59,914 bases of DNA, taken from positions 1-59,914 of the forward strand of contig CAMNCG010000001.1 of NCBI GenBank assembly GCA_946534105.1, in the 5' to 3' direction. This document shows, one piece after another, positions 11,676-31,351 of the stretch (position 1 is the first letter of the stretch; every line of letters begins with the position of its first letter). This DNA is from an uncultured Verrucomicrobiota bacterium. Lineage in GTDB: Bacteria; Verrucomicrobiota; Kiritimatiellia; RFP12; UBA3636. The translations under genes were made by a program, and so were the position numbers. A model generated the notes under the pieces. The model was not told the origin of the DNA, searched no databases, and worked only from the letters and a program-made list of their open reading frames with translations.

Positions 11676-12398
11676 CTACGCGAGGACGGAGAGGGGAAGA
11701 AGACGCGACGCAAGTTCCGCACGGGGCAGTGCGCGGAGAGCCTCCAGGGAAACGGCGTCCCCCACGTTGAACTTTCCGGAGCGGATGCGGCGGAGCGCCG
11801 CAAGGTGTCCGCCGCATCCGAGCGCTTCGCCGATATCGTTGCAGAGCGTGCGCACGTACGTGCCCTTCGTGCAGGAAACGGTGAACCGGGAGTCCGGAAT
11901 GCCGAATTCGTCGATCCGAAGCGAATAGACATGCACGAGGCGCGGGTCGCGAACGACCTCCTCGCCCTTGCGGGCCATTTTGTAGAGGGGGACGCCGCCG
12001 ACCTTGATCGCGGAAACCATTGGCGGAATCTGGAAAAGGTCGCCGGTGAAATCGGAACGGATGACGGATTCGAGCGCCTCGCGCGTGACGCCGGACGGAT
12101 CGGAGCCGCCGGTGCGCTCGCCCTCGGCGTCCTGGGTGCTGGTGCTCGCGCCAAGGCGGAGCACACCCTCGTAGACCTTGTCGCCGCCCATCACGGCCTG
12201 CGAGGCGCGGGTGGCCTTGCCGACGAGGATCGCGAGCAGACCGGTCGCCTGCGGATCGAGCGTTCCGCCGTGGCCCACCTTCTTGAGCTTGAACATGCGC
12301 CGCACGGCGACAACGACATCGCTCGACGTGACGCCGGCCGGCTTGTCGACGAGAAGGACCCCGTCGGGGTCCGGAAGGGAATCGACGTTGAAACGCAT
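11676..12398 (-). CDS. truB: tRNA pseudouridine(55) synthase
   Basis: The catalytic segment KVGHGGTLDP is present, preceded by LLVDKP.G.TS and followed by Y....LG..T...D, IPP..SA.K..G..LY and TYVR.L..D.G. Confidence 0.9.
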   Translation of the reverse strand: MRFNVDSLPDPDGVLLVDKPAGVTSSDVVVAVRRMFKLKKVGHGGTLDPQATGLLAILVGKATRASQAVMGGDKVYEGVLRLGASTSTQDAEGERTGGSDPSGVTREALESVIRSDFTGDLFQIPPMVSAIKVGGVPLYKMARKGEEVVRDPRLVHVYSLRIDEFGIPDSRFTVSCTKGTYVRTLCNDIGEALGCGGHLAALRRIRSGKFNVGDAVSLEALRALPRAELASRLLPLSVLA

Positions 12399-12401
12399 CG
12401 C

Positions 12402-13109
12402 CTACTGCTCTTCCGGGGCCGCGTTCTCGAGATCGTCGTTCTCGGGATTCCACTGGAATCCGCCGAAATTGTCCGTCGCGGAAAGTCCGTCGCGCCAGAC
12501 CGCGGCGCGGCGGAAAGCGGCGGCGTGACCGTCGGCGAACGCGAAGCAGACGCTGCCCGAATGGCGGAACGCGGACGATCCGTTTTTGGTTCTTCCGAGG
12601 GTCGAGAGATCAACGCCGGACTTTCCGCCGGTCGGCGTCTCGGAAAACACGACGAACCGGTCGGGGTTCTTGATCTGGTGCTGGTGTGTGGCGCCCTTGG
12701 TTCTGGAAACGTGGGTGTTGAACGTGTAGCTGGAGTAGTAGTCGCCGTGGTCGGTGCCGTCGCCGACGTCCGCCGGGCAGAGGAACATGCTCTTCTTTCC
12801 TCCGCCGGGAAACGCCACCGATTCGGACATCGGCGCCTGGTCGACGTAGGGAGGAAGTTCTTCGTACCAGAGCTTCGAGTTGCCCTGCCAGTTCGGGAAC
12901 TTGCCGCGGTTCTCGTCGAGGTACAGGTTGAGCGCAAGCCCCCACTGGCGAAGATTGTTGAGACAGCTGGTGCGCTGCGCCCTCGCTCGCACGGAACCGG
13001 CGAGAGGAAACATGAGACCGGCGAGAATGGCGATGACGGCGACGACGAACAGCATTTCGATGAGCGAGAAGCCGGTCCTCGAGACGGCGCGGGGAGTTTC
13101 GTTTTCCAT
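12402..13109 (-). CDS. prepilin-type N-terminal cleavage/methylation domain protein with H-X9-DG tail (DUF1559-like)
   Basis: The prepilin leader and hydrophobic helix GFSLIEMLFVVAVIAILAGL are present. The C-terminal HSGSVCFAFADGH fits the H-X9-DG motif. Confidence 0.8.
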   Translation of the reverse strand: MENETPRAVSRTGFSLIEMLFVVAVIAILAGLMFPLAGSVRARAQRTSCLNNLRQWGLALNLYLDENRGKFPNWQGNSKLWYEELPPYVDQAPMSESVAFPGGGKKSMFLCPADVGDGTDHGDYYSSYTFNTHVSRTKGATHQHQIKNPDRFVVFSETPTGGKSGVDLSTLGRTKNGSSAFRHSGSVCFAFADGHAAAFRRAAVWRDGLSATDNFGGFQWNPENDDLENAAPEEQ

Positions 13110-19733: not shown

Positions 19734-20555
19734 TCAACCCCTCGCCGCCTTGATGGTTTCGTATGCCTGGTTGATCTCCGCGCTCTTCTGGTTCGCGAGC
19801 TCCACCCATTCCGGGTCGAGGTCCTTGCCCTGGATTTTGTCCGGATGGAAGGCGGCGAGTTTCCTCTTCCACGCCTTCTTGACCTCGGCGTCGGAGGCGT
19901 CGGGGGAGACGCCGAGCGTCGCGTAGGCCTCGGCTAGAGCGGCGTCGCCGGAAGACCCCTCGTCCTCGTCGCCTCCGGCGAATTCCGCAACAACGAGGTC
20001 GAACACCTCCGGCTTGAAGCCGAGGGGATCCGGAATCCCGCGGAGCAAGGCGATTTCCGAGTCGTCGAGCGCCCCGTCCGCGAGAGCCATCAAAAACAGG
20101 TGGCGATAGATCTGAAGGCGGATGTCGAAGCCGCCGCTTTCATCGCCGGGATTCAGCTCGATCGCCGCCTGAAGGATGGCATTCGCCCACTCGGCGGCAT
20201 CGTCGATGTTCTTCTTCTGTTCGTTGAAGAAATTCTGAAGGTTCCTACGAACATCGATGTCGAGCTCCAGATCATCGAAGAAGGCCTTGACGAACCCAAT
20301 TTCGGACTTATCCACCCGTCCGTCCGCCTTGGCCATCTTTGCCAGCAAGGCAACTTCGCCCAACAGCAGAATGGTTCCTGGCTCCGACTTCTCGTCCCCG
20401 AGGCCAACCAGATTCAGCGCGCTGTCAACCGTTCGTCCGGCACCGTCGATCACGCCGCCCAGCACGTCGCCAACACCATCTATGATCTCGCCGTCAAAGA
20501 CTTTTCCAAGTCCTCCGCCGACCTTCTTGAAGAAGTCTCCGAGTATGGTTCCCAT
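19734..20555 (-). CDS. djlA: DjlA-like co-chaperone (TerB-like domain plus C-terminal J domain)
   Basis: Trimmed to the ATG at 20555 (MGTILGDFF). The C-terminus LGVSPDASDAEVKKAWKRKLAAFHPDKIQGKDLDPEWVELANQKSAEINQAYETIKAA matches the DjlA J-domain pattern, including HPD. The middle part is TerB-like (AKADGRVDKSEI, ALADGALDDSEI). Confidence 0.7.
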   Translation of the reverse strand: MGTILGDFFKKVGGGLGKVFDGEIIDGVGDVLGGVIDGAGRTVDSALNLVGLGDEKSEPGTILLLGEVALLAKMAKADGRVDKSEIGFVKAFFDDLELDIDVRRNLQNFFNEQKKNIDDAAEWANAILQAAIELNPGDESGGFDIRLQIYRHLFLMALADGALDDSEIALLRGIPDPLGFKPEVFDLVVAEFAGGDEDEGSSGDAALAEAYATLGVSPDASDAEVKKAWKRKLAAFHPDKIQGKDLDPEWVELANQKSAEINQAYETIKAARG

Positions 20556-20571
20556 GGTTTTGCTATTCTTG

Positions 20572-21387
20572 TTAATTACCGATTGAGGTTGAGTTGGAAA
20601 TGCGGATGTAATCGACGAGCATTTCGTTCGGGAACTGCGAATCGTCAATTTCAAAACCAGGCCAGTTGCCGCCAACGGCGACATTCAAGATCAGGAAGAA
20701 CGGCTTGTGGAAAGCATTGGTTCCACCAGCATTGTTTTCGATGATCATCTCGTTGTACTTGAAGTCATCAACATACATGGATATGACTTTTTCGTTCCAA
20801 ACGAGCCTGTAATCATGAAACTTCGTTACGTCCAGCGGGAATCTCGCTCCATAAAAGTCCGAAGTGCTTTTCCCATGTTGCGCATGACCATTGTTGAACC
20901 AGTGACATGTCCCATGCACGACATGCTCGTCATTGACGGCCTCGATGATGTCGATCTCACCGCATGCAGGCCAGCCAACGGAATCGATGTTTTCGCCTAG
21001 CATCCAGAAGGCGGGCCAGATTCCTTTGCCAGAGGGCAAGGCAATGCGTGCTTCTACCATGCCATAGGTGAAGGAGAATTTTCCCTTCGTGACCATGCGG
21101 GCGGAGGTGTAGTCCGATCCGTTGTATGATTCATTTACGGCGCGAATATGGAGGATACCGTCCTTCACATAGGCGTTTTGGGATTGGTCGGTATAAAACT
21201 CCTTCTCGTTGTTGCCCCAGCCATTGTTCCCCGTTCCTATTTCAAAACTCCACTTCGATAAGTCAATGGCGCTACCATCGAATTCGTCATGTCACAGGTA
21301 TGGACTCTTTGAATCGGGACTTATCAACTTCTTGAGATAGTCGTATTTTTCGCGAAACAGCGCCAGAACTTCTTCACGTGTTTTCAT
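20572..21387 (-). pseudogene. GH16 (laminarinase/beta-glucanase fold) gene interrupted by an in-frame TGA
   Basis: The frame opens at the ATG at 21387 (MKTREEVLALFREKYDYLKKLISPDSKSPYL). It hits a TGA at 21292-21294. It then continues in the same frame as HDEFDGSAIDLSKWSFEIGTGNNGWGNNEKEFYT...GEIDIIE (the ExDxxE catalytic motif). There is no signal peptide. Confidence 0.6.
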
Positions 21388-21414: not shown

Positions 21415-22431
21415 TTAGAGGATAGGTGGTTGCCCTTTGACAAGTTTTTGTCCCCAAAGACAGCGAGCGTCATCCTTCTGCACATCGGGACTGTTCGCGA
21501 CCAACTTCGAAAGGTATGTGTCGATTGGAGGAAAGTCGGCTAGTTCAGCATCCGTCAACACCTTAATACATCCTCCAAATCCAAACATTCGGACGAAAAC
21601 TATTCCATCTCCAATCCAAAAGAAGAGTTCTCTATCGGGGAAAGGATCAATTATTGCTGGAATACTAATGGGGAAAACGTAATGCAACTTCCTTAGCGCC
21701 ACCCCACCAGAGAAGATGGCTTCTCTGAAGGATCTTGCCGAATCTGATTTCAGGATGTAGGGATATCCATACATGCAGAATGCAAGTTCATACGCGATTT
21801 TTACATATTCTTGGACGCCAGTATCATTCCAAGCGATTTTCTCTTGGTGCAACAAGGGGCGTTCGGAATGATGCGTTGCTTTTTGCAGAGCTTCGTCAGC
21901 CATTGAAGCAACGAGCTTATTCAATTTGTCAGGTGCGTCCTCCAGCTGGGGATTGAGTTTAAGTTGAACACGACGTAACTCTTTCTTAACCATTTCAAGC
22001 TGTTCTTTACGCGAATATGTAGCGGGAATTACCATCGACACACTCGTAGCATCAAGGTCTTCTTTGATTGTAACTGTGGGCAATGTCTCGGGGCTACCAT
22101 TGACGATGCGGACCTTTTCTAGGCGAGAAGTCGGATCGTCCACGGCCCATACACCGGAAAATATATTGGGACAATGCCCTTTCTTTCCTTTGAGTCCGTA
22201 AATGTGTCGGTTCAGTATGAATGGAAAAAGCGCTTGGAAATTTCCATCAACGGTTGAACCGAGTTTAGAATTACAATCTTTGCAGACAAAAGGCATTTTC
22301 AGCCTTCCTCCGATTGATTCCGGAAATACATGCTCAATGGTTAACGGCTTCTCTTTTAGACAGAAGATGCATTGTTTGTTGTAATCCACGGCGTCTGAAG
22401 CGTGGCTCTGTTGAACATGAATGTTTTCCAT
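21415..22431 (-). CDS. HNH endonuclease domain protein with an unassigned C-terminal domain of about 250 aa
   Basis: The N-terminal HNH/zinc-finger motif is CIFCLKEKPLTIEHVFPESIGG...CKDCNSKLG. I prefer the ATG at 22431 because a GGAGG sits 9 nt upstream. That start lies 1 nt after the upstream TAG stop. Confidence 0.7.
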   Translation of the reverse strand: MENIHVQQSHASDAVDYNKQCIFCLKEKPLTIEHVFPESIGGRLKMPFVCKDCNSKLGSTVDGNFQALFPFILNRHIYGLKGKKGHCPNIFSGVWAVDDPTSRLEKVRIVNGSPETLPTVTIKEDLDATSVSMVIPATYSRKEQLEMVKKELRRVQLKLNPQLEDAPDKLNKLVASMADEALQKATHHSERPLLHQEKIAWNDTGVQEYVKIAYELAFCMYGYPYILKSDSARSFREAIFSGGVALRKLHYVFPISIPAIIDPFPDRELFFWIGDGIVFVRMFGFGGCIKVLTDAELADFPPIDTYLSKLVANSPDVQKDDARCLWGQKLVKGQPPIL

Positions 22432-22432
22432 G

Positions 22433-23698
22433 CTATTTTCCCTCCGCATTTCTTTTTTTGATTATGACATTTTTCTCCAAGAGCGAAAATCCCTTTTCAT
22501 CAGTATCAAACCTGTTAATTAGTTCTCCGTTATTGCGAATTTTAATGTCGGGTTCCCGAAAGAGAATGGTTCTTTGCAATGGTCTATCTTTCGGATTGCT
22601 ATTATTTTTGCTTTCCTTAACATATTTAGCCGCTTCTAAACAAAGTTTTATGACTTCTTTGCGATATTTTTCAAGCGCCTGCAATTCAATTGTCGCGCCA
22701 AAAAGCCTTTCGCAATAGGTCACGGCTTTCCACAGCAGCCAAACGTTTGTCGAATAGGCCCAGTGAATTGATGCCTGTGTCCAGCGATAAATCCGTTGAA
22801 TTGATTGGAAGCTGACAGGACGATCCTTGAAATGAAAATTCGTTTCAAACTCTTTCTCAATTATAGACTGGAATCTTCCACTACGGATCTCAAAGAGATC
22901 AAGGGGGACAACTCCACGGAAGCCGACAATCCGCATGAACCACGATTCCAGCATTTGGCGAATGGCAAAAATCGACAGCATCTCTCTTGACGGATTGTTT
23001 GGAATGCGATTGAAGAAAGCCAGATTCTCTATGTCGCAAAACAATGGAAGCGTGAACGATTGTCTTTCTCGTTGAGATGAGGATTTACAGAATCCAGAAA
23101 TTAACCCGGTCGACGAAAGGTCCTGAACAAAGTTGCAGACTGTTTCACATGGGAATACAACACGGGAAAAGCCATACAAGTCCGGCTTGTCAATACGTTC
23201 CAGAATCCACGCCAAAAACTCCTCGCAACAGCACAACGTAGCTTGTGCGAGTTCCAAATTATTCAAATAAGGATTTTTAGCAGGGCCAAGCCTTTGCGGT
23301 TGAACATCGTGTTCTTTGTCCGTGATGTTGTCGACAACTTCGGTTGTTCGAATAGCATATGTTTTCCCGTCTGCGAGCTGAAATTGCGTTTGACTTTCCC
23401 GTCTTTCAAATTCAATGTCTGGCTCAGAAAATAATCGGTCGATAAGTGTGTCTTCATCCAGATTTGATCCGTTTTGAAGCGCGGTATGCAACAGGGTTTT
23501 CAACTTGTGAATTGTTGCCTTTAACTCATCTTTGTCCCTTTGATGAGGAGCAAACCATTCGAGTAGCGTATCGCCACAATGCAGAGAATCAACAATTGGA
23601 AGTTGAAACTGTTTGGTCGCAGATTCGGTTTTCATCGGGTGTCCTTCCTGCTTGTGAACCCAAGCCATTTGGGATCGTTTTTCCTTATTCGAAAACAC
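22433..23698 (-). CDS. hypothetical protein (no recognisable domain)
   Basis: 421-aa ORF with non-repetitive, protein-like composition and no P-loop. The track start is a GTG at 23698. An alternative ATG at 23635 (MKTESATK) has a better Shine-Dalgarno sequence (GGAAGGA). Confidence 0.6.
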   Translation of the reverse strand: MFSNKEKRSQMAWVHKQEGHPMKTESATKQFQLPIVDSLHCGDTLLEWFAPHQRDKDELKATIHKLKTLLHTALQNGSNLDEDTLIDRLFSEPDIEFERRESQTQFQLADGKTYAIRTTEVVDNITDKEHDVQPQRLGPAKNPYLNNLELAQATLCCCEEFLAWILERIDKPDLYGFSRVVFPCETVCNFVQDLSSTGLISGFCKSSSQRERQSFTLPLFCDIENLAFFNRIPNNPSREMLSIFAIRQMLESWFMRIVGFRGVVPLDLFEIRSGRFQSIIEKEFETNFHFKDRPVSFQSIQRIYRWTQASIHWAYSTNVWLLWKAVTYCERLFGATIELQALEKYRKEVIKLCLEAAKYVKESKNNSNPKDRPLQRTILFREPDIKIRNNGELINRFDTDEKGFSLLEKNVIIKKRNAEGK

Positions 23699-23699
23699 A

Positions 23700-24056
23700 T
23701 CATGAGAATCGATGCTCGATTTCCGAATGGATGTTCTTGAGAATGCGGTTTGCGAACGACTTGACTACTATGCGCCCCAAAATGTCGCCAAGAGAGAAAG
23801 GAAGAATTGAAAGTGGCGGTGCCGGGTCGGCTAGAATTAAGAACTTTCTAGTTTTAGTTTTGGATTCTACGACGAGATCGTTCCCCACTTGATAAATGGA
23901 AAATGCCAAGTCACCATTGCCTGAGGAGATAGAAAAACTGTCATCCTGCTTCATCTGTTCGCAATTGAGGCTGAAACCATGTGCTTTGCATCGCTCTATA
24001 GCGAAATCGACGCATTCCTGCAATTGTTGAGACTTCCCAGTAATGACAGTTTTCAT
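23700..24056 (-). CDS. hypothetical small protein
   Basis: 118-aa ORF in the same tight gene string. It has AT-rich codon usage like its neighbours. I recognise no family. Confidence 0.5.
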   Translation of the reverse strand: MKTVITGKSQQLQECVDFAIERCKAHGFSLNCEQMKQDDSFSISSGNGDLAFSIYQVGNDLVVESKTKTRKFLILADPAPPLSILPFSLGDILGRIVVKSFANRILKNIHSEIEHRFS

Positions 24057-24083: not shown

Positions 24084-24482
24084 CTAATCGTGAAGCATTT
24101 CGAGAAAGGCGGAAAATGATTCCGCAACAAGCATGGTTCTGTCCTGCTCGTGCAACCACAGATGAATGGCCCCGTTTTTCACGACAAAGAAATTCCCTGC
24201 TGGATCGGTGGCAAAAGGAACAAGCTTCTTGTTCGCGGAATCCAGTGGATAGAAGGCGAACACGTTCTCGACATCGCCTCGGTTAAAGGAGAGGAGAGAC
24301 TTGAATTCCTTGTCCTTTTCCAACGCAAGGTCGTAATATTTCAATGACGGGCGACCGCCATTGTTCGTTCGGATCGTGTTCTTGAGGTCTTCCGGCAGCG
24401 TAGTGCCAACCAGGGATTCGTACTCTGCAATGCTTCCCGCATCGACAAGTGGTTTGACGTATTTCCAAGTGATGACCTTCAT
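24084..24482 (-). CDS. SMI1/KNR4 (SUKH-1) family immunity protein
   Basis: 132 aa. The motifs IAEYESLVGTTLPEDLKNTIRTNNGG, FATDPAGNFFVV and AESFSAFLEML give a textbook SUKH pattern. It lies 15 nt downstream of the nuclease gene. Confidence 0.85.
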   Translation of the reverse strand: MKVITWKYVKPLVDAGSIAEYESLVGTTLPEDLKNTIRTNNGGRPSLKYYDLALEKDKEFKSLLSFNRGDVENVFAFYPLDSANKKLVPFATDPAGNFFVVKNGAIHLWLHEQDRTMLVAESFSAFLEMLHD

Positions 24483-24497: not shown

Positions 24498-25328
24498 CTA
24501 AACACGAAAATCGCTTCCGCCGCCCCAGATGCTCCGACCGCCAGTATGGCCCGTCAATCCGTGCACATCAGATTTGACCAGTTGCATCTTTCCAAGTTCC
24601 TCGTTATGGTGCCACGTATATCCATCCGGGGTGTCGCCGTTTCTGACTTGATCCAATTGCTCGGCTGAAAACGAGCTAGTTGAATCAGGATTCTTTCCGA
24701 TGTGTTCCTGCAACTGATGGTTGCATTCGGCAAATTGCTCCTTGTCGGATGCCTTCAACATATCTTCAGGAAGTTTCGCATCGAAGGCAGATTCAAATTT
24801 TGGGAAAACACCTGTTACTTGGTTGCCGGCCGCGTCCACAACGGTCTTTTGTTCGAACGGTACGCCAGTTATGGGATGAACATCTCCTTCCAGAGCCTGA
24901 TTTCGCGTCAGAAGATTATAATGAATTGGGTTTGTCGCGCCGGCTTCAGCGGTTGGAGTCGCTTTGATCGCCTCCCGTACGCCTAAATCAGCATTTAGCA
25001 CTACAGAATCAGCCTTAAGCATCTCATCCGGCAAAATTTTTCCAGTTTTGAGATCCATGACGGCTTGTTCAAGGGTGGAGGCATTTCCGCCTTGCGTCAC
25101 CTGAGTGGCGAAAGTCTGGACGGCATTTGCCGTGTTCACCTCAGTCGCTACGACTGTTTTTTCCGCAGTGGTAGCAGTCTGCGCCATGATTGCAGCGGCT
25201 TGACCTCCTGTCTTAGCAGCCACGGCACCAGTTTCGGCAGCCGTCTTTGCTGTCACGGCAGCGGCTTTTGCGGCGGCCGCGCCTACTTCTGCGGTAGCAG
25301 CTCTCGCCGCAGCCAATATCGGTATCAT
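24498..25328 (-). CDS. WHH-type HNH/EndoVII-fold nuclease (toxin-like) protein
   Basis: The C-terminus is GYTWHHNEELGKMQLVKSDVHGLTGHTGG, which fits the WHH clade signature. It is preceded by HPITGVPF...GVFPKF. The N-terminal part (about 100 aa) is an Ala/Thr-rich helical region. I prefer the ATG at 25328 because AAGGAG sits 7 nt upstream. That start lies 1 nt after the ATPase TAA. Confidence 0.7.
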   Translation of the reverse strand: MIPILAAARAATAEVGAAAAKAAAVTAKTAAETGAVAAKTGGQAAAIMAQTATTAEKTVVATEVNTANAVQTFATQVTQGGNASTLEQAVMDLKTGKILPDEMLKADSVVLNADLGVREAIKATPTAEAGATNPIHYNLLTRNQALEGDVHPITGVPFEQKTVVDAAGNQVTGVFPKFESAFDAKLPEDMLKASDKEQFAECNHQLQEHIGKNPDSTSSFSAEQLDQVRNGDTPDGYTWHHNEELGKMQLVKSDVHGLTGHTGGRSIWGGGSDFRV

Positions 25329-25329: not shown

Positions 25330-28300
25330 TTACGACTCCTTTCCACATAGCGCCTGGAGAATTGCGGAAATAGCGCCAAGTGTTTCCAGCTTGGAACACC
25401 CTGGAACCTTTCCCTTTAGGCAATCAAGAACGACAATGCAAACCGCCTTCTCAAACGAGATAAGGGTATCGCCTCTGAGGTCGAGCCTCGGAACAAAGAA
25501 AGCATCAGTTGCCTTTACGATGGAGTCAATTGCCGCCGGAAGATCGTCTCTCTGAAACGCGGCCGTGATCGCCTCCCGGTCAGTTTCGGTCGCAAGAATC
25601 GCGGCGGCCGTCTGCTTCGCTTCAGAATAGAATCCAACAACTGCTTCCAACGGGCGATCATACCATGTGGGCATGACGACTCGCATGCGAAGTTCATCCG
25701 ATTTTAGTAATTTATTACGCACTTCCTTGACGCATTGCGAATCCGGAGCAAAGCCGCCCGTAGGCAAAGAACGATTCCAGAGTCTCAGAATGTCATCACG
25801 TGTCCTTGGCGCATACTCGCTAAGGTATTTCCTCGACTTTAGCAACGCATAGACGGCACCGTGCAGAAGGTGGGCTCCCATCTCGCCGCGGGCCAGCGTA
25901 ATGTTAACACGCTCGGCAATCTGTGGAAGCTCTCCCGAGAGACATTCCTCCCAAATGTGAGTCCATCGTTCTTCTTTGCCCGTTCCGGCCACGACAAGGA
26001 CAGATGAGAGGTATCGGTCTGCCAGGCGTTCCAATTCTCGCGGCGCTTTTTGCTCGATTATGTTTCGCACTTGATCAAAATGCGATGGACGGCGATCCGT
26101 TGCATTTGGGCGTTCAAGGGCGCTGAGTTTCGCATCCGAGACCCCCTGCCCGGCTGAATTGAGTCGCTTGCGGATACGGACGTGCACGGGTTCCGACAAC
26201 GAGGAGCAGTGAACAAGCGCTTCGCCCACTTTCAGCCGATTCAGGAAAGCGGATTGTTCCGGGTCAAGGCCCAAGCTTCCGCCTATTTCCTCGGCATCCT
26301 CGCGCGCTCCAAGTCTGTGTGCGATTTTGAGATTCGTATTTTTGATGGCCCCTTCGCTGAGCCGTAGCGGCAGTTGGTCGGCAATGACGATGCCAAGGCC
26401 GTAAGCGCGCACCTCGGAGAGTATGTTTTCAAAAATCTCGACCGCATGTTGTGCCGTGTTGTTCCCGACAAGCGAGTTGTTTTTCACGGACTCCCGCTTG
26501 AACACCCTGTGCGCCTCTTCGACAACAAGCAGATTCCTGAGGTTTTCGGACTCGCCTTCGCTCTCGAAATACTTGTAAATCCGAAGCATCAGGATGCCCG
26601 TGAGAAACGCCTTGCTCTCATCGTTTCCGACTTTGCGCATCTCAATTACAGTCGGACGCGAGAGGAGTTCCGCCACGTCGAAGGGCGTCTCGCTGTTGAA
26701 AAGTCGCCCGCGCGGGCCGATCCGCAACGAGTTGATTCGTGTCAGCAGCGCTCCGCGAATGTTGCTCCCATAGTCGCCCGAAAGCTTTTGTTCGTCGATT
26801 ACGGCTGCCAGGTCGTTGTAAAAACTGTCCATCGTCGGGACGGCACCGCTTGCTGGTGGGGCGCCGCTCGCGATGTCCCAGCCTGCATTCTCATAGGCGC
26901 GAACAAGTCCCTGCTCCACAAGCGCCGCCATTGGCCCTTCCATGGGAAAGGCGGAATTGAGGATTGCCCCAAGCGCATCGATATGCGAGTGAACAGTGTC
27001 GCCAGGAGACAGCTCAAACGGATTGATTCTCAGCGGAACGACCAATTCGTCCCCTGCCGTATAGACACGGATTGGCTCCCCGTCGATTTGCAGATTGCGG
27101 TATTCGCTCTTGGCAGGTTCCAACACCAAAAACGGAACTCCCGCCTGTGAAAGAATCTCGCGAATCGTCGTGCTTTTGCCCATGCCGGTAAGACCGGTCA
27201 CGAGCGTATGAGCGCGAAGGTCGGCCGTCGTGATGCCAACCTCGTTCGCGATAGCCACTTCGCGATCGCAAAGAGCGCCCAGCACGATGTCCGGCTTGTC
27301 GTAAAGCGTCTCGGGATTGACCGAATAGCGGCGCGTAGAGCGGATATCAACACCTGGATGGCTCTCTGCGGGAAGGCACATGAGCGAAGCAAATTCGCTG
27401 CTCGTCAGGATGGTGCCAATCGCCTCTCCTTCAAGTGTCTGCGGAATTGACGACACGACACCAGACCAATCATCGGAACGATTGGCAAGCGGAACGATGC
27501 GAAAAGGTTCGTGAGCGTCAAAGCGTTCCGTCAAAGCCGTCTTGAACATGGACGCCGCAAATCGGAATGTGTCATCATCCTCCGCAAGAAGAAATGCGAC
27601 ACTCTTCCATGCGCCTTCTGATAGAGCCCGTTTCCAGCGCTCCTCTTCCTCCTTCAGAGCCTCTTCGTAGGCTTCGGCAAAACGGTTCAACCGTTCAAGG
27701 GAATTTGAATACGTTTGGCTCCGTGTGCGCGTGGTGGAGTAATTGACTCCGACTGCGCCGCCGCCGGTTAGGGCAGCCGTGGCCGGATTCCAAGCTCCGC
27801 CCATAAAATTGATCGCCGAGGCAGCTGGACGGACGATTCCGGCTAGCAATCCCCATTTGGGCAATTGCGCCAAAGCACCAAATCCAGTTAATGATGTTCC
27901 AAGCGTATTCGCTACGCTCTCACCGTATTGCTTTTGAATGTTGTTCTTGATTCGGTCGTGGTTCTCCCCGACAAGGCGGCGAATCTCGTCAAGTCGATTA
28001 TTGATTTCCGCTTCCGATAGTGATGCTCCGGAGACAAGCAACGTGAAGGTCTTTCCGCGCATTCCACGCAAAAGCCGGTCAAGCGAATAAAGGGGTTCCT
28101 GCTCGTTGTCAGAAAATGCCGGGACTCCCGTGACGATACCGCCTCGCGTCATGTTCTTGACAAGTGGCGCAAGCGGGGTTTCGTCACCGAAGAGGACTCC
28201 GGGAAACGCCGCTTCCAGCGAAGGGCGATGGTGAGCGGCATCCTCGACGCCAGCATAGAGTTCCACGGCGAGCGATGTCCCGCGAACAACGAACGAGATC

Positions 28301-28596
28301 CCGTTTCTGCATCCCGCTTCCTCTTTCACCCATGACTGCATGGCTGTCATGAGTTCGTGAATGACCTGGGCATGCTCGATTCGGTTAGAGTAAAAGAGGG
28401 ATCTGATGCGGATGAACCTTCCCGTTTTGTTCACTGAGAGTTCTGTGCCATCCTCGAATGTCGAACTCCCCGGAATCTCGGACAACCAGTCCCGTCGCAG
28501 TTGCGACAAGGCCGACTGGGCTTGTTCGTTCGTCTCGCGGTAGAGCGCAAGGAACTTTTCGTCCTCGCGTGTGATAATGTCGGTCTTTTCAGCCAT
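25330..28596 (-). CDS. large HerA/FtsK-superfamily (DUF87-like) P-loop ATPase
   Basis: 1088 aa. Walker A is TGLTGMGKST (27169-27195), followed by FLVLEPAKSEY. Walker B is LLVVEEAH (26509-26532). VIADQLP...NTNLKIAHRL is also present. The N-terminal region (about 440 aa) and the C-terminal region (about 270 aa) are unassigned. Confidence 0.75.
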   Translation of the reverse strand: MAEKTDIITREDEKFLALYRETNEQAQSALSQLRRDWLSEIPGSSTFEDGTELSVNKTGRFIRIRSLFYSNRIEHAQVIHELMTAMQSWVKEEAGCRNGISFVVRGTSLAVELYAGVEDAAHHRPSLEAAFPGVLFGDETPLAPLVKNMTRGGIVTGVPAFSDNEQEPLYSLDRLLRGMRGKTFTLLVSGASLSEAEINNRLDEIRRLVGENHDRIKNNIQKQYGESVANTLGTSLTGFGALAQLPKWGLLAGIVRPAASAINFMGGAWNPATAALTGGGAVGVNYSTTRTRSQTYSNSLERLNRFAEAYEEALKEEEERWKRALSEGAWKSVAFLLAEDDDTFRFAASMFKTALTERFDAHEPFRIVPLANRSDDWSGVVSSIPQTLEGEAIGTILTSSEFASLMCLPAESHPGVDIRSTRRYSVNPETLYDKPDIVLGALCDREVAIANEVGITTADLRAHTLVTGLTGMGKSTTIREILSQAGVPFLVLEPAKSEYRNLQIDGEPIRVYTAGDELVVPLRINPFELSPGDTVHSHIDALGAILNSAFPMEGPMAALVEQGLVRAYENAGWDIASGAPPASGAVPTMDSFYNDLAAVIDEQKLSGDYGSNIRGALLTRINSLRIGPRGRLFNSETPFDVAELLSRPTVIEMRKVGNDESKAFLTGILMLRIYKYFESEGESENLRNLLVVEEAHRVFKRESVKNNSLVGNNTAQHAVEIFENILSEVRAYGLGIVIADQLPLRLSEGAIKNTNLKIAHRLGAREDAEEIGGSLGLDPEQSAFLNRLKVGEALVHCSSLSEPVHVRIRKRLNSAGQGVSDAKLSALERPNATDRRPSHFDQVRNIIEQKAPRELERLADRYLSSVLVVAGTGKEERWTHIWEECLSGELPQIAERVNITLARGEMGAHLLHGAVYALLKSRKYLSEYAPRTRDDILRLWNRSLPTGGFAPDSQCVKEVRNKLLKSDELRMRVVMPTWYDRPLEAVVGFYSEAKQTAAAILATETDREAITAAFQRDDLPAAIDSIVKATDAFFVPRLDLRGDTLISFEKAVCIVVLDCLKGKVPGCSKLETLGAISAILQALCGKES

Positions 28597-31351
28597 AGAC
28601 AGGTTCCTTTCCTGGATTCAACTCCTCCAGCGACTGAACGGATGATTCGACAAAGGCCTTCACTTCCTCGCTGAATGATTCCAGTGACTTGATCTTTTCC
28701 TCTTTATCACCTTTAGCCTTCGCCACATCGGCTAGGATCTTTTCCTCCTGCTTGTCCAGGTTATATAAGTAGGTATCAAGATTATTCCGGTATTCCGCCA
28801 CTGTTCCTTTCACGAATTCATCGACCTTAGCGGTCATTTTCGATAAAACGGAAGAATCCTCATCACCAATAATTAGTTTCGTCAACTCCGCCTTGACTTT
28901 TTCAACAATCTTCTTGCGAATGATGTTTTTCGCAAAAGGAAGGCCGATGATTACAAAAACAGCCGCCAACCCTGCGACAATCGCTATGATCGGCCCCAAA
29001 CCCAACCCCCAGAAAGGCGCCGACGACACCACCGTTGAAGCCACAGTTCCAAGACCATGTGCAGCGCACCAAGTGGCGAGCGCTCCGCTTCCCAACAAGC
29101 CTGCAAGGCCTGTGCCCGCGCTTATTGTCGAGCTAGTGACAACTCCTACCGTAAGACCTAGAACTGCGGCCAAAGCTCCCCCGGATACTCCGGCGGCGGC
29201 TGTTGCCACCATAATATTCGTATTGGCATTTTCATCGATTCCCGTATAAGGCGTAGGATTCTCTATAATTCCTTCTCCAATGCTTTCGCATTGATGTTCA
29301 AGCGTAGTGTCGTCAATTATTTCGAGTATCGGACGAAGTCTTTTAACTAGATGTTCTCCCTGTCGGCGCAATTCTCCGGCCAATTCTGTTGAGATAGAAT
29401 CCATTCGGGCTGACACTTGTTTTATTAGCCATTTTTCCAATTCCTCACCTTTGTTTGCCGTGAGGCGTTTGAACTCGTTTTTGTCAGCCAGAGCCTTTTC
29501 GAGCTTTTCCGCCACTGCGTTTGGAATTGCCCTCAGTTTGATTTTCACTTTTGACATGACACCCTTTTCGGGCCTCAACGCAGACTCCTGAAAGTCTTTT
29601 AGAGCACTTCGCGCCTCTTTTGCACTTTGCTCGCGCAGACGATGAAGTTCTCGTTGTTTTTCTGCCAGCTCCTTGTCGCTTCTGTCCGCTCTCAAGGCCG
29701 CTATCGTTGCCCTGTTGATGGTATCCATCTCTTGGCCGTAAGCTTTTACGAGACTTTCGGCCCTCTCGCAAAAAGGGAGTTCTTTGTTCTCCTCGTGAAG
29801 GTAGGATTTGATTCTTTCACGGAGTTTGTTAAACTGGCTCTGTTCGCGGAGAAATCTTATTGCGGCGTCCTTGCGTTCCTGTTCATTCCCGGCCTTCGTC
29901 CATTCGTCCGACACAAGCAACTTTGAAATGGAAAGTTTCTTGTTGTCAATAAGATCGGCAATAGTGGCCGAACCATCCGAAAGCCGATTGGCAAAAGCCT
30001 CGCAAAGAGCGGAGCTTTTCAGAAATTCCGGCTTGGGCGGAATCGGATCTCCGTCGCCACCGGCTTTGACAGAGGGGATATGTTCCTTAAGTTCGGCAAG
30101 AGCGTCGTTGATCTCGTCATTGTTCTGTTGGTCTATTTTGTTGAGAATAAAAAAGACTTTTCGTCGATAACTGTTCACTATCCGATTGCAGAGCCATTCA
30201 TCGACAGAACTTCCCGCCTTGGGCGACTCGACCACATAAAGAACGAGTTGCGTTTTGGGAATGATGTCATCGATAATGGATTCATGCCCCTTGTAAACGG
30301 AACCGGCTCCGGGTGCATCAGTCAAGGTGATTTCGCCCAGCCATTCTGGAAGATTCGGAATGCCGAGTTGCAATACGGTGCAGGTTCCATCGTTAATCCG
30401 TTTTTTGAATCTGGAAAGACCTGTTTCATGACAGCTCTGCTGATCTGCTAGTTGTTCAATCACTTGATGGAACCCTTTTGAATCGTCTGGTTCAAAAGCC
30501 ACCCCTATGCCCGGAATCGTTTGGCCGTCGCGCTCCAGATTCTCCAGAAATGTCCCGCCGGATATTTCATTCGACACTTCATCTTGAAGCGCTTTGGCCT
30601 GAGCTTTCGTAATGTCGCAGTTCGGCATGAAAACATAGAACTGTTCTGAGCGAAAGATTTCGGTAGTGACATTTGTCGTTGGCAAATCGGCCGATGGAAG
30701 ATAATCGGCGCCCATCAGCGCATTGAGCAACGTTGATTTCCCGGCGCTGAAGGCCCCGAACACTGTCACGCGATAGCGGTCGTAGCAAACGCTCCGCTTA
30801 AGCGAGTCAATGTCCCTTTCCATATCCATGACTCGGGAATCCGTGAGACCGTTGCCCGGTCGTTTGACCAAACCGCGCAATCCTTCAAGCGGTTTGATGA
30901 TTTCTCGACGTTTTGGATTGAGTGCCTTCATTTCATCGATGCTCTTTTTGGTGGTTCGTGTTTCCTTCGTTTTCTCCGTCCAAATGATGTCGCCGTTTTC
31001 GAAATGCGAAATGCGGTCATTAGCATCGCCGTCGCCATCGTACACTTCTTCGTCGGAAACGGGATAGCCGAGCCAACCCCGCTTGCCGGTTTCGTCGTAA
31101 GCACCTCCTTCGCGATACCAACGCTTGCAAATCTCGCCGTGCGTTTCATGGGGTTCGGCGTCGCCCGGACGAAGCGTTATTGCGCAACCATATCCCCATG
31201 CTCCGTCGTAGTTGCATTGCCAGCCTCCGTCCGGGGTTTTGTAGATGCCGGGCTCGATTGCGCCTTCAACGGTCGGAAAGCGCTCTTGTTTGAGCCAGTC
31301 GTATTTGGCTTGGAACTTGGTCGCGATGTCTGCTGGAATGTTGGTGTTCAT
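28589..31351 (-). CDS. bacterial dynamin-like GTPase with an LGFP-like N-terminal module and a hydrophobic paddle
   Basis: The GTPase motifs are G1 GAFSAGKST (30731-30757), G2 PTTNVTT, G3 DAPG and G4 NKID. Long heptad-rich helical regions follow. A Gly/Ala-rich hydrophobic block of about 93 aa lies at 28937-29215. I prefer the ATG at 31351 over the TTG at 31402. The gene overlaps the ATPase gene by 8 nt. Confidence 0.8.
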   Translation of the reverse strand: MNTNIPADIATKFQAKYDWLKQERFPTVEGAIEPGIYKTPDGGWQCNYDGAWGYGCAITLRPGDAEPHETHGEICKRWYREGGAYDETGKRGWLGYPVSDEEVYDGDGDANDRISHFENGDIIWTEKTKETRTTKKSIDEMKALNPKRREIIKPLEGLRGLVKRPGNGLTDSRVMDMERDIDSLKRSVCYDRYRVTVFGAFSAGKSTLLNALMGADYLPSADLPTTNVTTEIFRSEQFYVFMPNCDITKAQAKALQDEVSNEISGGTFLENLERDGQTIPGIGVAFEPDDSKGFHQVIEQLADQQSCHETGLSRFKKRINDGTCTVLQLGIPNLPEWLGEITLTDAPGAGSVYKGHESIIDDIIPKTQLVLYVVESPKAGSSVDEWLCNRIVNSYRRKVFFILNKIDQQNNDEINDALAELKEHIPSVKAGGDGDPIPPKPEFLKSSALCEAFANRLSDGSATIADLIDNKKLSISKLLVSDEWTKAGNEQERKDAAIRFLREQSQFNKLRERIKSYLHEENKELPFCERAESLVKAYGQEMDTINRATIAALRADRSDKELAEKQRELHRLREQSAKEARSALKDFQESALRPEKGVMSKVKIKLRAIPNAVAEKLEKALADKNEFKRLTANKGEELEKWLIKQVSARMDSISTELAGELRRQGEHLVKRLRPILEIIDDTTLEHQCESIGEGIIENPTPYTGIDENANTNIMVATAAAGVSGGALAAVLGLTVGVVTSSTISAGTGLAGLLGSGALATWCAAHGLGTVASTVVSSAPFWGLGLGPIIAIVAGLAAVFVIIGLPFAKNIIRKKIVEKVKAELTKLIIGDEDSSVLSKMTAKVDEFVKGTVAEYRNNLDTYLYNLDKQEEKILADVAKAKGDKEEKIKSLESFSEEVKAFVESSVQSLEELNPGKEPVYG

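What the first reader, a model, noticed from the sequence alone, without database searches (positions are those of the whole stretch)
25330..31351. Dynamin-like GTPase translationally coupled to a giant HerA/FtsK-type ATPase: candidate undescribed conflict system
**Seen in the sequence**
- Two very large ORFs overlap by 8 nt (ATGGCTGA at 28589-28596), and an AAGGA sits 8 nt before the second ATG. They are therefore almost certainly expressed as a unit.
- The first ORF has a complete dynamin-type motif set (GAFSAGKST, PTTNVTT, DAPG, NKID), long helical stalk regions and a hydrophobic paddle.
- The second ORF (1088 aa) has a HerA/FtsK-type core (GLTGMGKST, LVLEPAKSEY, LLVVEEAH, VIADQLP..NTNLKIAHRL). 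Large regions on both sides of the core are unassigned.

**Established knowledge**
- To my recollection, dynamin-like GTPases on their own form an anti-phage system (the Dynamins/Eleos LeoA-LeoBC system), and B. subtilis DynA delays phage lysis.
- HerA-type ATPases partner with Sir2 or DUF4297 effectors in defence systems.
- FtsK/HerA/VirB4-class ATPases drive DNA or protein translocation.

**Inference**
- I know of no described system that pairs a dynamin-like GTPase with a HerA-like ATPase.
- The pair sits in an AT-rich island directly upstream of a nuclease/immunity pair. This suggests a membrane-associated NTPase machine that senses or counteracts invaders, or that delivers the nuclease.
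Basis: partly seen in the sequence, partly recalled or inferred. Interest (0 to 1): 0.9.

Follow-up and report, generated by a model that had tools for sequence, protein, structure and literature searches.

The report
Dynamin–giant ATPase–nuclease toxin conflict cassette
A low-GC island carries a tightly coupled operon (membrane dynamin-like GTPase, 1088-aa VirB4/HerA-type ATPase, swappable nuclease toxin, immunity protein) that recurs in many bacterial phyla, including E. coli, Pseudomonas, Bacillus and dairy Lactococcus plasmids, and that no paper or annotation library I could search names as a system.

Summary
On the minus strand, a dynamin-like GTPase gene (28589-31351) overlaps a 1088-aa HerA/VirB4-type ATPase gene (25330-28596) by 8 nt. 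A WHH/colicin-DNase toxin gene starts 1 nt after the ATPase stop, and a SUKH immunity gene follows.

The linkage is not chance. All 15 fetched loci with 39-90% identical ATPases carry a dynamin gene, as do 20 of 80 distant loci in three operon layouts. The recurrent full cassette is a WYL regulator (often), one to three dynamins, sometimes a tail-anchored membrane protein, then ATPase, nuclease and SUKH.

Among six close relatives the toxin keeps its first ~105 residues. After a TGKxLPDE junction it switches between three different C-terminal domains.

PADLOC, NCBIfam and Pfam give only family-level matches. Ten literature searches found no description of the cassette.

Best reading (about 0.45): a membrane-associated anti-phage or anti-plasmid system. 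The ATPase holds and releases an immunity-masked nuclease after a dynamin-sensed trigger.

Main rival (about 0.3): a new ATPase- and dynamin-driven toxin export machine.

It is an experimentally tractable, apparently undescribed conflict system.

The parts
28589..31351 (-). Dynamin-like GTPase (DLP), 920 aa from the first ATG (the ORF is open from TTG at 31402).
   Evidence: Pfam Dynamin_N 3e-20 and PADLOC LeoA/LeoBC 1e-19 to 1e-21. The nearest solved relatives by sequence are Campylobacter DLP1/2, Nostoc BDLP and mitofusin Fzo1.
30962..31330 (-). N-terminal LGFP-repeat-like module of the DLP (about residues 8-130), a mobile accessory and candidate sensor module.
   Evidence: Pfam LGFP 2.5e-7. 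The module is duplicated in the L011 DLP. It is absent from the L093 DLP but heads two separate ~300-aa proteins in L093.
30134..30769 (-). GTPase domain of the DLP (residues 195-406) with G1-G4 motifs GAFSAGKST, PTTNVTT, DAPG and NKID.
28916..29215 (-). Two hydrophobic Gly/Ala-rich segments of the DLP (residues 713-745 and 774-812), a predicted membrane-inserting hairpin.
   Evidence: Kyte-Doolittle scan, maxima 1.9 and 2.8. The same feature is in the L011, L012 and L003 DLPs.
28589..28596 (-). 8-nt overlap ATGGCTGA between the DLP stop and the ATPase start. AAGGA lies 8 nt upstream of the ATG.
25330..28596 (-). Giant HerA/VirB4-type P-loop ATPase, 1088 aa.
   Evidence: Pfam DUF87, PADLOC HerA, and NCBIfam CedD and serine-rich family. 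AlphaFold model with mean pLDDT 83.4. Foldseek matches to HerA 5e-13, TrwK/VirB4 1e-12, VirB4 C-terminal domain TM 0.73 and DndH-C TM 0.70.
27277..28596 (-). N-terminal 440 residues of the ATPase, a VirB4-N-terminal-domain-like alpha/beta region.
   Evidence: The separate model has mean pLDDT 72.6. Its only significant PDB matches are the TrwK/VirB4 N-terminal halves (E 8e-4, probability 0.99-1.0, TM 0.32-0.37).
27691..27924 (-). Low-complexity Gly/Ala/Ser/Thr-rich insertion in the ATPase (residues 225-302), disordered in the model.
   Evidence: pLDDT is below 50. The insertion is 55-291 aa only in the DLP-, HSP70- or c1-linked ATPase clade and 2-28 aa in the other clade. It often has a glycine-zipper-like hydrophobic core.
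26152..27234 (-). RecA-like ATPase core (about residues 455-815) with Walker A GLTGMGKST, Walker B LLVVEEAH, and invariant R730 and Q741.
25333..26079 (-). All-helical C-terminal domain of the ATPase (about residues 840-1088). It is conserved only among closer relatives. That it docks the toxin N-terminus is inference only.
   Evidence: Helices in the model. Distant homologues align only to about residue 810-830.
24498..25328 (-). Nuclease toxin, 276 aa. The ATG lies 1 nt after the ATPase stop. It has no signal peptide and no transmembrane segment.
   Evidence: Pfam Colicin-DNase 2e-30 and WHH 1.5e-15. Hydrophobicity scan.
25014..25328 (-). Constant Ala-rich N-terminal region of the toxin (residues 1-105), ending in the junction motif LKTGKILPDEML.
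   Evidence: It is conserved in six loci whose C-termini belong to three unrelated types (A9; A2).
24519..24821 (-). WHH (HNH/EndoVII-fold) nuclease domain of the toxin (about residues 170-270).
24084..24482 (-). SUKH (SMI1/KNR4) immunity protein, 132 aa.
   Evidence: Pfam SMI1_KNR4 5e-16 and SUKH_6 2.5e-13. It is 98% identical in L093 and 51% identical in L003.
21415..24056 (-). Three further co-directional, tightly packed genes: E (118 aa), F (421 aa) and G (344 aa, HNH_5). They are probably island cargo or a second module, not core.
   Evidence: E and F are conserved at the same position in L093 (77% and 90%). They are absent from L011, L012 and L003. G matches HNH_5 at 1.5e-13. None matches a PADLOC or NCBIfam family.

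Best explanation
The locus is a membrane-associated, NTPase-driven conflict system that most likely acts inside the producing cell against phages or other incoming DNA. The steps below are marked as shown or inferred.

**Shown**
- The cassette is co-expressed: genes overlap or abut.
- A dynamin-like GTPase is anchored in the cytoplasmic membrane by a hydrophobic hairpin. In other lineages the membrane anchor is a tail-anchored partner protein.
- The ATPase is a HerA/VirB4-type enzyme of the kind that forms hexamers.
- The toxin is a small HNH-fold nuclease with a lineage-constant N-terminal region.
- A cognate SUKH inhibitor gene follows the toxin gene.

**Inferred**
- In the resting state the nuclease is tethered to the ATPase through its N-terminal region and kept inactive by SUKH.
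- Infection is sensed at the membrane by the dynamin, or through its variable LGFP-like module.
- GTP-dependent dynamin assembly then switches on the ATPase.
- The ATPase acts in one of two ways. It may strip the immunity protein from the nuclease. Alternatively it may feed DNA to the nuclease, as HerA does for NurA.
- Invading DNA, and possibly host DNA, is then degraded. The outcome is abortive infection or destruction of entering DNA.
- Swapping of the nuclease and immunity pair reflects an arms race with inhibitors.
For: **Conserved linkage across phyla**
- The same gene order occurs in an E. coli ETEC IncI plasmid, Lactococcus cremoris conjugative plasmids, a Bacillus plasmid, Pseudomonas islands, and Clostridium, Megasphaera, Latescibacterota, Lentisphaerota and Kiritimatiellia.
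- The cassette crosses between single-membrane and double-membrane bacteria with unchanged composition. The Lactococcus ATPase is sister to the E. coli and Pseudomonas ones. That is expected for a cytoplasmic system.

**No envelope-crossing parts**
- No protein in the scanned cassettes has a transmembrane segment except the DLP hairpin, the tail-anchored protein or its 190-aa counterpart in L001, and the Lactococcus ATPase insertion loop. Signal peptides were judged by eye from the N-terminal sequences and none was seen. No outer-membrane or periplasmic component was recognised.

**Defence-type context**
- A co-directional WYL regulator sits directly upstream in at least 9 loci from different phyla. 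WYL regulators are associated with phage-resistance loci (PMC8565348, citing Makarova 2014).
- Neighbours include AbiEi/AbiEii, an Abi family protein, YoeB/RelB, integrases and recombinases. The Pseudomonas copy lies next to a YqaJ gene, as in a reported defence hotspot (PMC12629846).

**Precedents**
- Two-dynamin Eleos protects against phage (Millman preprint).
- HerA hexamers scaffold and activate Sir2 or DUF4297 effectors. Those solved complexes are among the structural matches.
- The ATPase core also matches the defence ATPases mad8 and DndH.

**Coupling to the toxin**
- The toxin start overlaps or abuts the ATPase stop (offsets -3 to +7 nt) in 12 further loci. This fits a stoichiometric complex.
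- Only one immunity gene is recognised per locus. No tandem immunity arrays were seen.
Against: - WHH, LHH and Endonuclea_NS_2 toxins with SUKH immunity are, in the literature read here, hallmarks of secreted polymorphic toxins (PMC3113570, PMC3482391). I know of no reported anti-phage system that uses them.
- The constant N-terminus, variable C-terminus and cognate immunity swap is the signature of inter-bacterial toxins.
- The ATPase resembles the secretion ATPase VirB4 in both halves.
- The ATPase insertion often has a glycine-zipper-like hydrophobic core, which suggests membrane insertion.
- Neighbourhood evidence is anecdotal. No formal defence-island enrichment score was computed.
- This window lacks the WYL gene and the second dynamin.
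- No experiment exists for any member.
Confidence: 0.45

Rival explanations
1. The locus is a new toxin-export or toxin-delivery machine for inter-bacterial competition. The VirB4/HerA-type hexamer docks on the membrane through the dynamin hairpin, the tail-anchored protein or its own Gly-zipper insertion. It recognises the toxin's constant N-terminal region, strips the SUKH immunity protein and translocates the nuclease across the cytoplasmic membrane or into membrane vesicles. The dynamins shape or pinch off those vesicles.
For: - The toxin shows a polymorphic architecture with a sharp recombination junction (TGKxLPDE). It has three unrelated C-terminal domains and matching immunity swaps among loci with 79-86% identical ATPases.
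- The toxin and immunity families are those catalogued for secreted polymorphic toxins (PMC3482391, PMC3113570).
- FtsK/HerA/VirB4 ATPases drive type IV and type VII secretion (PMC3482391). The ATPase N-terminal domain matches only the VirB4 N-terminal domain.
- Proteins encoded directly after the ATPase in this clade share an Ala/Gly/Val-rich N-terminus (fraction 0.54 against 0.38 in background ORFs, p = 2e-8).
- All cassettes have a membrane anchor.
- ETEC LeoABC dynamins were proposed to aid vesicle-associated toxin release. That proposal is Michie 2014, as cited.
Against: - No outer-membrane or periplasmic component and no signal peptide were found.
- The same parts list occurs in single-membrane and double-membrane hosts.
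- The toxins are only 195-300 aa and have no receptor-binding or entry domain.
- No orphan toxin or immunity arrays were seen.
- The WYL regulator and Abi or toxin-antitoxin neighbours point to defence.
- The dynamin can be replaced by HSP70 with the same ATPase, WHH and SUKH module.
Confidence: 0.3
2. The toxin and immunity pair is an ordinary addiction or toxin-antitoxin module of the mobile island. It merely sits beside an unrelated dynamin-ATPase membrane-maintenance or DNA-handling module.
For: - The island is mobile and its flanks differ between relatives.
- Type B and Type C dynamin-ATPase operons in other phyla have no recognisable nuclease or SUKH gene.
Against: - The toxin start overlaps or abuts the ATPase stop in 12 further loci from several phyla.
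- The nuclease and SUKH pair follows the ATPase in three separate ATPase subclades, and also when HSP70 replaces the dynamin.
- The toxin N-terminus is conserved with the ATPase lineage while the toxin domain is exchanged.
Confidence: 0.08
3. The locus is a DNA-transfer or DNA-uptake accessory, that is, a conjugation- or Ced-like DNA translocase, and not a conflict system.
For: - The best named NCBIfam match is the DNA-translocating ATPase CedD (1e-25, far below its cutoff).
- The fold is VirB4-like.
- Several copies are on conjugative plasmids.
Against: - The cassette has no relaxase, coupling protein, pilin or VirB3/6/8/9/10 genes.
- A nuclease toxin with an immunity protein is hard to reconcile with productive DNA transfer.
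- The cassette also sits on chromosomal islands without conjugation genes.
Confidence: 0.05

Closest known systems
Eleos (formerly 'Dynamins'; LeoA + LeoBC) anti-phage system, and ETEC LeoABC
   Same: - Both use membrane-associated bacterial dynamin-like GTPases, usually encoded as two adjacent genes, on mobile or defence islands.
- The window DLP matches the PADLOC LeoA and LeoBC models at 1e-19 to 1e-21.
   Different: - Eleos is a stand-alone two-dynamin operon.
- Here the dynamin or dynamins are always followed by a ~1100-aa ATPase, a nuclease and an immunity gene.
- The window has one dynamin only.
- The dynamins of the E. coli cassette barely match the Leo models (5e-6 or nothing).
HerA-effector defence systems (Sir2-HerA, DUF4297-HerA) and archaeal HerA-NurA
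   Same: - Both pair a HerA-type hexameric ATPase core with a small effector or nuclease. Solved complexes of this kind are among the best structural matches.
- The plausible logic is the same: the ATPase scaffolds the effector or feeds it substrate.
   Different: - The ATPase here is about twice as long. It has a VirB4-like N-terminal domain, a low-complexity insertion and a helical C-terminal domain.
- The effector is an HNH-fold polymorphic toxin with a dedicated SUKH inhibitor.
- Dynamin or HSP70 partners are present.
- There is no Sir2, DUF4297 or NurA gene.
Type VIIb secretion (EssC ATPase + LXG toxins + immunity) and the polymorphic toxin paradigm
   Same: - Both combine an FtsK/HerA-superfamily ATPase with toxins that have a constant N-terminal region, exchangeable C-terminal nuclease domains and a downstream cognate (SUKH) immunity gene (PMC3113570, PMC3482391).
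   Different: - The ATPase has a single P-loop domain of the HerA/VirB4 branch and no transmembrane helices. It is not a triple-domain EssC.
- No WXG100, LXG or EsaC genes were found.
- Dynamins are present.
- The cassette also occurs unchanged in double-membrane bacteria.
VirB4 (TrwK) of type IV secretion systems
   Same: - Both have a two-domain layout: an N-terminal alpha/beta domain plus a C-terminal RecA-like ATPase.
- VirB4 C-terminal domain TM-score 0.73. The N-terminal model matches only TrwK.
   Different: - No other type IV secretion genes are present.
- Sequence identity is about 10-18%.
- The extra insertion and the C-terminal helical domain are absent from VirB4.
'EccE3-HerA' ATPase with a small helical protein noted in Type III-A CoCoNuT loci (PMC11090510), and the DO-GTPase conflict systems (PMC7159879)
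   Same: [quoted passage not shown] That resembles the insertion-bearing clade and its c1 partner here.
- DO-GTPase systems share the theme of paired GTPases near the membrane with variable effectors.
   Different: - Identity with the CoCoNuT ATPase was not tested because no sequence was available.
- Those papers mention no dynamin, no WHH or LHH toxin and no SUKH gene in that context.
- DO-GTPases are a different GTPase family and have a GAP1 partner.

Membership tests
Bacterial dynamin-like proteins | Dynamin-type GTPase domain with G1-G4 motifs. | tested here: met
   Dynamin_N scores 73 bits against a cutoff of 27. GAFSAGKST, PTTNVTT, DAPG and NKID are present.
Bacterial dynamin-like proteins | Helical stalk plus a membrane-binding paddle. 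| tested here: inconclusive
   Two hydrophobic segments lie at residues 713-812. PADLOC LeoA stalk regions align. The DLP was not modelled.
FtsK-HerA superfamily (HerA/VirB4 branch) | RecA-like P-loop core with Walker A, Walker B, and conserved Arg and Gln. | tested here: met
   K474, E693/E694, R730 and Q741 are invariant. Solved HerA structures match at 1e-17. Foldseek matches HerA at 5e-13 and the VirB4 C-terminal domain at TM 0.73.
Eleos / Dynamins defence system | Two adjacent Leo-type dynamin genes (LeoA + LeoBC) that form the whole system. | tested here: not met
   The window has one DLP gene, and a host DUF445 gene lies upstream. In relatives the operon always continues into ATPase, nuclease and SUKH genes. 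Leo HMM matches are weak in the E. coli and Lactococcus copies.
Sir2-HerA / DUF4297-HerA defence systems | A HerA gene paired with a Sir2 or DUF4297 effector gene. | tested here: not met
   No Sir2 or DUF4297 match was found in any cassette protein.
Sir2-HerA / DUF4297-HerA defence systems | HerA of about 550-700 aa matching the family models at full length. | tested here: not met
   The protein is 1088 aa. NCBIfam HerA_antiphage scores 32 bits against a cutoff of 800. Only the C-terminal part of the core aligns.
Type IV secretion system | VirB4 together with VirB3/6/8/9/10, a coupling protein and a relaxase or pilin. | tested here: not met
   Only the VirB4-like fold is present. No other type IV secretion family matched in the island or in the E. 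coli, Lactococcus or Bacillus cassettes.
Type VII secretion (ESX / T7SSb) | Multi-domain EssC/EccC ATPase with transmembrane helices, and WXG100 or LXG substrates. | tested here: not met
   The ATPase has a single P-loop domain and no transmembrane segment. The toxin gave no WXG or LXG Pfam match.
Polymorphic toxin systems | A constant N-terminal part with C-terminal toxin domains that differ between close relatives. | tested here: met
   Six loci share about 105 N-terminal residues. They then carry WHH, Endonuclea_NS_2 or an unassigned domain.
Polymorphic toxin systems | A cognate immunity gene immediately downstream that changes together with the toxin. | tested here: met
   A SUKH gene follows WHH and LHH toxins. 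Different, unassigned genes follow the NS_2 and unknown toxins.
Polymorphic toxin systems | A recognised secretion or trafficking domain or signal on the toxin, and actual export. | tested here: inconclusive
   No known trafficking domain, signal peptide or transmembrane segment was found. Export itself cannot be tested with these tools.
Anti-phage defence system (generic) | Enrichment next to known defence genes, and protection in a phage challenge. | not testable with these tools
   Support is anecdotal: a WYL gene upstream in at least 9 loci, and AbiE, Abi and toxin-antitoxin neighbours. No statistical enrichment was computed and no experiment was possible.

The most novel reading that the evidence does not exclude
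The cassette could be a previously unrecognised secretion or delivery system that does not depend on envelope type. A VirB4/HerA-type hexamer would insert its glycine-zipper or beta-rich insertion into the cytoplasmic membrane. It would load N-terminally tagged polymorphic toxins after stripping their immunity protein. Dynamin-like GTPases, or HSP70 in some lineages, would remodel the membrane or the cargo, for example to produce toxin-filled vesicles. It would be the first toxin-export pathway built on bacterial dynamins.
Probability: 0.27. Interest if true: 0.95.

Novelty: new variant of a known kind. Interest (0 to 1): 0.78.

Why it matters
- **Dynamins.** Bacterial dynamins have few established functions. 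Here they are locked by gene order, in several phyla, to a giant VirB4/HerA-type ATPase and a swappable nuclease-immunity pair. That gives them a concrete partner and an output to test.
- **If it is a defence system.** It would join two known defence themes, Eleos dynamins and HerA-effector complexes. It would also be, to my knowledge, the first to use a polymorphic-toxin and SUKH pair as its effector.
- **If it is an export machine.** It would be a new secretion principle.
- **Tractability.** Natural copies exist on an E. coli ETEC IncI plasmid, on Lactococcus dairy plasmids, on a Bacillus plasmid and in Pseudomonas islands. Phage, conjugation and competition assays are routine in these hosts.
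- **Wider family.** The ATPase superfamily has about 2,400 clusters at 50% identity with E <= 1e-30. Its alternative partners (HSP70, a second ATPase, unknown proteins) suggest a larger unexplored set of systems.

Tried and rejected
- **Named systems.** PADLOC, NCBIfam and Pfam gave only partial, family-level matches, and no system rule is satisfied.
- **Literature.** Ten full-text searches combined dynamin, HerA, VirB4, DUF87, SUKH, WYL and toxin terms. I also read the polymorphic-toxin, SUKH, Eleos, lactococcal plasmidome, WYL/CARF, NTP-dependent conflict-system and CoCoNuT papers. None describes the cassette. Subscription-only papers were not searchable.
- **Shared toxin tag.** I asked whether the toxin N-terminus is homologous to the c1 small helical protein of the Type C operons. 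hhalign gave probability 0.2%, so I rejected this. Only a shared Ala/Gly/Val-rich composition remains.
- **Breadth of toxin polymorphism.** A search with the toxin N-terminal 115 aa found one fragment only, because the sequence is low-complexity.
- **Metagenome scan.** A scan with the ATPase found only one further locus, L093.
- **Phage carriage.** Only two unannotated metagenomic fragments matched.
- **E. coli prevalence.** One of 5,426 complete genomes carries the cassette.
- **Island ends.** No tRNA genes and no convincing flanking direct repeats were found.
- **Promoters and terminators.** The scan found no more sites than shuffled sequence.
- **Full-length structural superposition.** Alignment on TrwK/VirB4 has a poor TM-score (0.2-0.3). 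The VirB4 likeness of the N-terminal domain is therefore a lead, not proof.


Full report
**1. What is in the window**

All genes of the finding lie on the minus strand, in a low-GC island of about 20.5-31.5 kb. GC there is 0.40-0.57, against 0.64-0.70 in the flanks.

Reading 5' to 3' on the minus strand:
- A: dynamin-like GTPase, 31351-28589, 920 aa.
- B: ATPase, 28596-25330, 1088 aa.
- C: nuclease toxin, 25328-24498, 276 aa.
- D: SUKH immunity protein, 24482-24084, 132 aa.
- E (118 aa), F (421 aa) and G (344 aa), down to 21415.

A and B overlap by ATGGCTGA, and AAGGA lies 8 nt before the B start. The C start codon lies 1 nt after the B stop. All later gaps are 27 nt or less. Upstream of A is a high-GC DUF445 membrane-protein gene of the host. 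I found no tRNA gene, flanking repeat, promoter or terminator signal that defines the island ends.

**2. Family assignments**

*Protein A.* It is a bona fide dynamin-family GTPase. Dynamin_N scores 3e-20 with all four G motifs present, and PADLOC LeoA/LeoBC match at about 1e-20. By sequence, its nearest solved relatives are Campylobacter DLP1/2, Nostoc BDLP and mitofusin Fzo1. It has an N-terminal LGFP-repeat-like module and two hydrophobic Gly/Ala-rich segments at residues 713-812.

*Protein B.* It belongs to the HerA/VirB4 branch of the FtsK-HerA superfamily.
- Pfam DUF87, several PADLOC HerA models, NCBIfam CedD and a 'serine-rich protein' family all match, all far below the family cutoffs.
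- Solved HerA structures match at 1e-17.
- The AlphaFold model has mean pLDDT 83.4.
- Foldseek matches Sulfolobus HerA (5e-13), TrwK/VirB4 (1e-12), the VirB4 C-terminal domain (TM 0.73), DndH-C (TM 0.70) and the Sir2-HerA and DUF4297-HerA complexes.

A separate model of residues 1-440 has mean pLDDT 72.6. Its only significant matches are the N-terminal halves of TrwK/VirB4 (E 8e-4, probability up to 1.0, TM 0.32-0.37). Residues 225-302 form a disordered Gly/Ala/Ser/Thr-rich insertion. Residues 840-1088 form an all-helical domain that is conserved only among closer relatives.

*Proteins C and D.* C is a Colicin-DNase/WHH nuclease (2e-30). D is an SMI1_KNR4/SUKH immunity protein (5e-16). The ATPase, toxin and immunity protein have no transmembrane segment, and no signal peptide was seen in their N-terminal sequences.

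**3. The linkage is conserved**

Fifty-eight homologues of B were found in the 5.8-billion-protein collection. Every context I could fetch for ATPases 39-90% identical to B has a dynamin gene directly upstream. In most of them a small nuclease gene is fused to the ATPase stop and an immunity gene follows.

These contexts are:
- L001, an Oligosphaeraceae MAG.
- L003, L008, L011, L012, L093 and L097-L100, from metagenomes.
- L007, Pseudomonas type.
- L009, the E. coli TW10590 IncI plasmid.
- L010, Lactococcus cremoris conjugative plasmids.
- L094, a Bacillus plasmid.

The usual form has a small dynamin (about 300-420 aa) and a large one (about 750 aa). In gammaproteobacteria and Bacillota it also has a ~290-aa protein, sometimes split in two, with a C-terminal transmembrane anchor. 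The Kiritimatiellia clade, which includes this window, has a single long dynamin that carries its own hydrophobic hairpin.

A scan of one genome per species found at least 577 relatives and returned the 80 best loci. I built HMMs from the fetched sequences and clustered the neighbouring genes. This gave the following operon types:

| Type | Gene order | Where found |
|---|---|---|
| A | DLP(s) - ATPase - WHH/LHH nuclease - SUKH | Clostridium, Megasphaera, Anaerovoracaceae, Latescibacterota, plus the taxa listed above |
| A' | HSP70 - ATPase - WHH/SUKH | Victivallales, Synergistaceae, Verrucomicrobia |
| B | three unknown genes - DLP - DLP - 400-aa protein - ATPase | Actinomycetota, Acidobacteriota, Chloroflexota, Cyanobacteria, Abditibacteriota |
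| C | ATPase - c1 (210-aa helical protein) - 154-aa protein - DLP - two unknown genes | Lachnospiraceae, Eubacteriaceae, Selenomonadaceae, Treponema |
| no DLP | ATPase with a 275-aa protein, or with a second 1265-aa ATPase | Streptomyces and others; Obscuribacter/Melainabacteria |

Twenty of the 80 distant loci have a co-directional DLP gene. In a neighbour-joining tree the DLP-linked ATPases fill one deep half and the DLP-free ones fill the other.

The low-complexity insertion is 55-291 aa in the DLP-, HSP70- or c1-linked half and 2-28 aa in the other half. It often has a glycine-zipper-like hydrophobic core.

Against 1.84 billion representative proteins the ATPase has 5,534 relatives at E <= 1e-3 and 2,402 at E <= 1e-30.

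**4. The toxin behaves like a polymorphic toxin**

In six loci with 79-86% identical ATPases, the toxin keeps its first ~105 residues (MIPILAAA...LKTGKxLPDExL). After that junction it continues as WHH in four loci, as Endonuclea_NS_2 in L011, or as an unassigned 125-aa domain in L100. The downstream gene changes with it.

More distant loci use LHH or other HNH-fold nucleases. Gammaproteobacterial and Lactococcus toxins share a short ELDKP-type motif instead.

In the DLP-, HSP70- or c1-linked clade, the protein encoded right after the ATPase has an Ala/Gly/Val-rich N-terminus (0.54 against 0.38 in background ORFs, p = 2e-8). Profile comparison shows no homology between the toxin N-terminus and c1.

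The toxin start overlaps or abuts the ATPase stop, with offsets of -3 to +7 nt, in 12 further loci.

**5. Context**

- A WYL-domain regulator gene lies directly upstream and co-directional in at least nine loci: Bacillus, Lactococcus, Pseudomonas, Clostridium, a Bacillus MAG, L001, L099, a Victivallales HSP70 variant and an Acinetobacter variant without DLP. It is absent from this window.
- Neighbours include AbiEi/AbiEii, an Abi-family protein, YoeB/RelB, AAA_14/DUF4143 genes, integrases and recombinases.
- The cassette is rare in E. coli (1 of 5,426 complete genomes).
- It is essentially absent from phage genomes.

**6. Interpretation**

*Shown.* This is a real, co-expressed multi-gene cassette that is conserved across phyla. 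It contains membrane-anchored dynamin(s), a HerA/VirB4-type ATPase, an exchangeable nuclease and a cognate inhibitor.

*Inferred.* The nuclease N-terminus docks on the ATPase. The immunity protein masks the nuclease. NTP hydrolysis controls release or translocation.

Two readings remain.

I favour intracellular defence (about 0.45), for these reasons:
- The parts list is identical in single-membrane and double-membrane hosts.
- All parts face the cytoplasm, and no envelope-crossing component was found.
- A WYL regulator is frequently the first gene. WYL regulators are linked to phage-resistance loci (PMC8565348).
- Neighbours are of the defence or toxin-antitoxin type.
- Both NTPase families have anti-phage precedents: Eleos and the HerA-effector complexes.

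The toxin-export reading (about 0.3) is supported by these points:
- The toxin and immunity show the polymorphic-toxin signature.
- The toxin and immunity families are those known from secreted toxins (PMC3113570, PMC3482391).
- The ATPase has a VirB4-like architecture.
- The insertion looks able to insert into a membrane.

Simple adjacency of an addiction module is unlikely, given the translational coupling and co-evolution described above.

**7. Novelty**

No library or paper available here names this cassette.

Two papers may have touched it:
- The CoCoNuT paper notes an 'EccE3-HerA' ATPase with a beta-strand insertion and a small helical partner. It may belong to the same superfamily, but this is untested.
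- A Pseudolactococcus paper mentions 'dynamins LeoABC and a toxin-antitoxin system' in one island. This could be the same cassette seen piecemeal.

I rate the locus a new variant of known kinds, namely HerA-effector and dynamin conflict systems and polymorphic toxin logic. There is a realistic chance (about 0.27) that it is a categorically new export machine.

Caveats:
- Subscription literature was not searchable.
- Gene calls in the distant loci are my own ORF calls.
- The neighbour families were defined with HMMs built ad hoc.
- The tree is a simple neighbour-joining tree without support values.

Noticed in passing
window 21415-24056 (-): Three more tightly packed genes follow the SUKH gene: E (118 aa) and F (421 aa), with no family match, and G (344 aa), with an N-terminal HNH_5 domain. 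E and F recur at the same position in L093 (77% and 90% identity). G does not. They may form a second small conflict module carried by the island.
   Followed up: partly
window 30962-31330 (-); L011:6793-10008; L093:10938-11867 and 11880-12776: The LGFP-repeat-like N-terminal module of the dynamin is mobile. It is duplicated in the L011 dynamin. It is missing from the L093 dynamin, but there it heads two separate ~300-aa proteins further down the operon.
   Followed up: partly
window 19734-21168 (-): At the low-GC edge of the island lie a TerB + DnaJ-domain protein (316 aa) and a 198-aa glycoside hydrolase family 16 ORF. The GH16 ORF looks truncated and overlaps the start of the TerB-DnaJ ORF.
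   Followed up: no
L006, L057, L069, L084, L091 (genes directly upstream of the ATPase): In one ATPase subclade an HSP70-like protein replaces the dynamin. In L006 it is fused to DnaJ_C and an FGE-sulfatase domain. Three of these five loci keep a WHH toxin or a SUKH gene downstream.
   Followed up: partly
L032, L033, L042, L044, L047, L051-L053, L070: In Obscuribacter/Melainabacteria-type genomes the giant ATPase pairs with a second ~1265-aa HerA/TrwB-like ATPase that has an N-terminal zinc ribbon, and usually with a ~190-aa downstream protein. There is no dynamin, and the ATPase lacks the low-complexity insertion.
   Followed up: no
protein cluster of P0057: Two short E. coli fragments of this ATPase cluster are named 'isopentenyl-diphosphate delta-isomerase, partial' in NCBI (HDS0834356.1, EFG5973467.1). 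This is probably an annotation error.
   Followed up: no
L096 (Acinetobacter piscicola plasmid NZ_CP048660.1, 33722-42525): A WYL gene and a giant ATPase are followed by six co-directional hypothetical genes, with no dynamin. This is another uncharacterised operon type of the same ATPase superfamily on a mobilizable plasmid.
   Followed up: no
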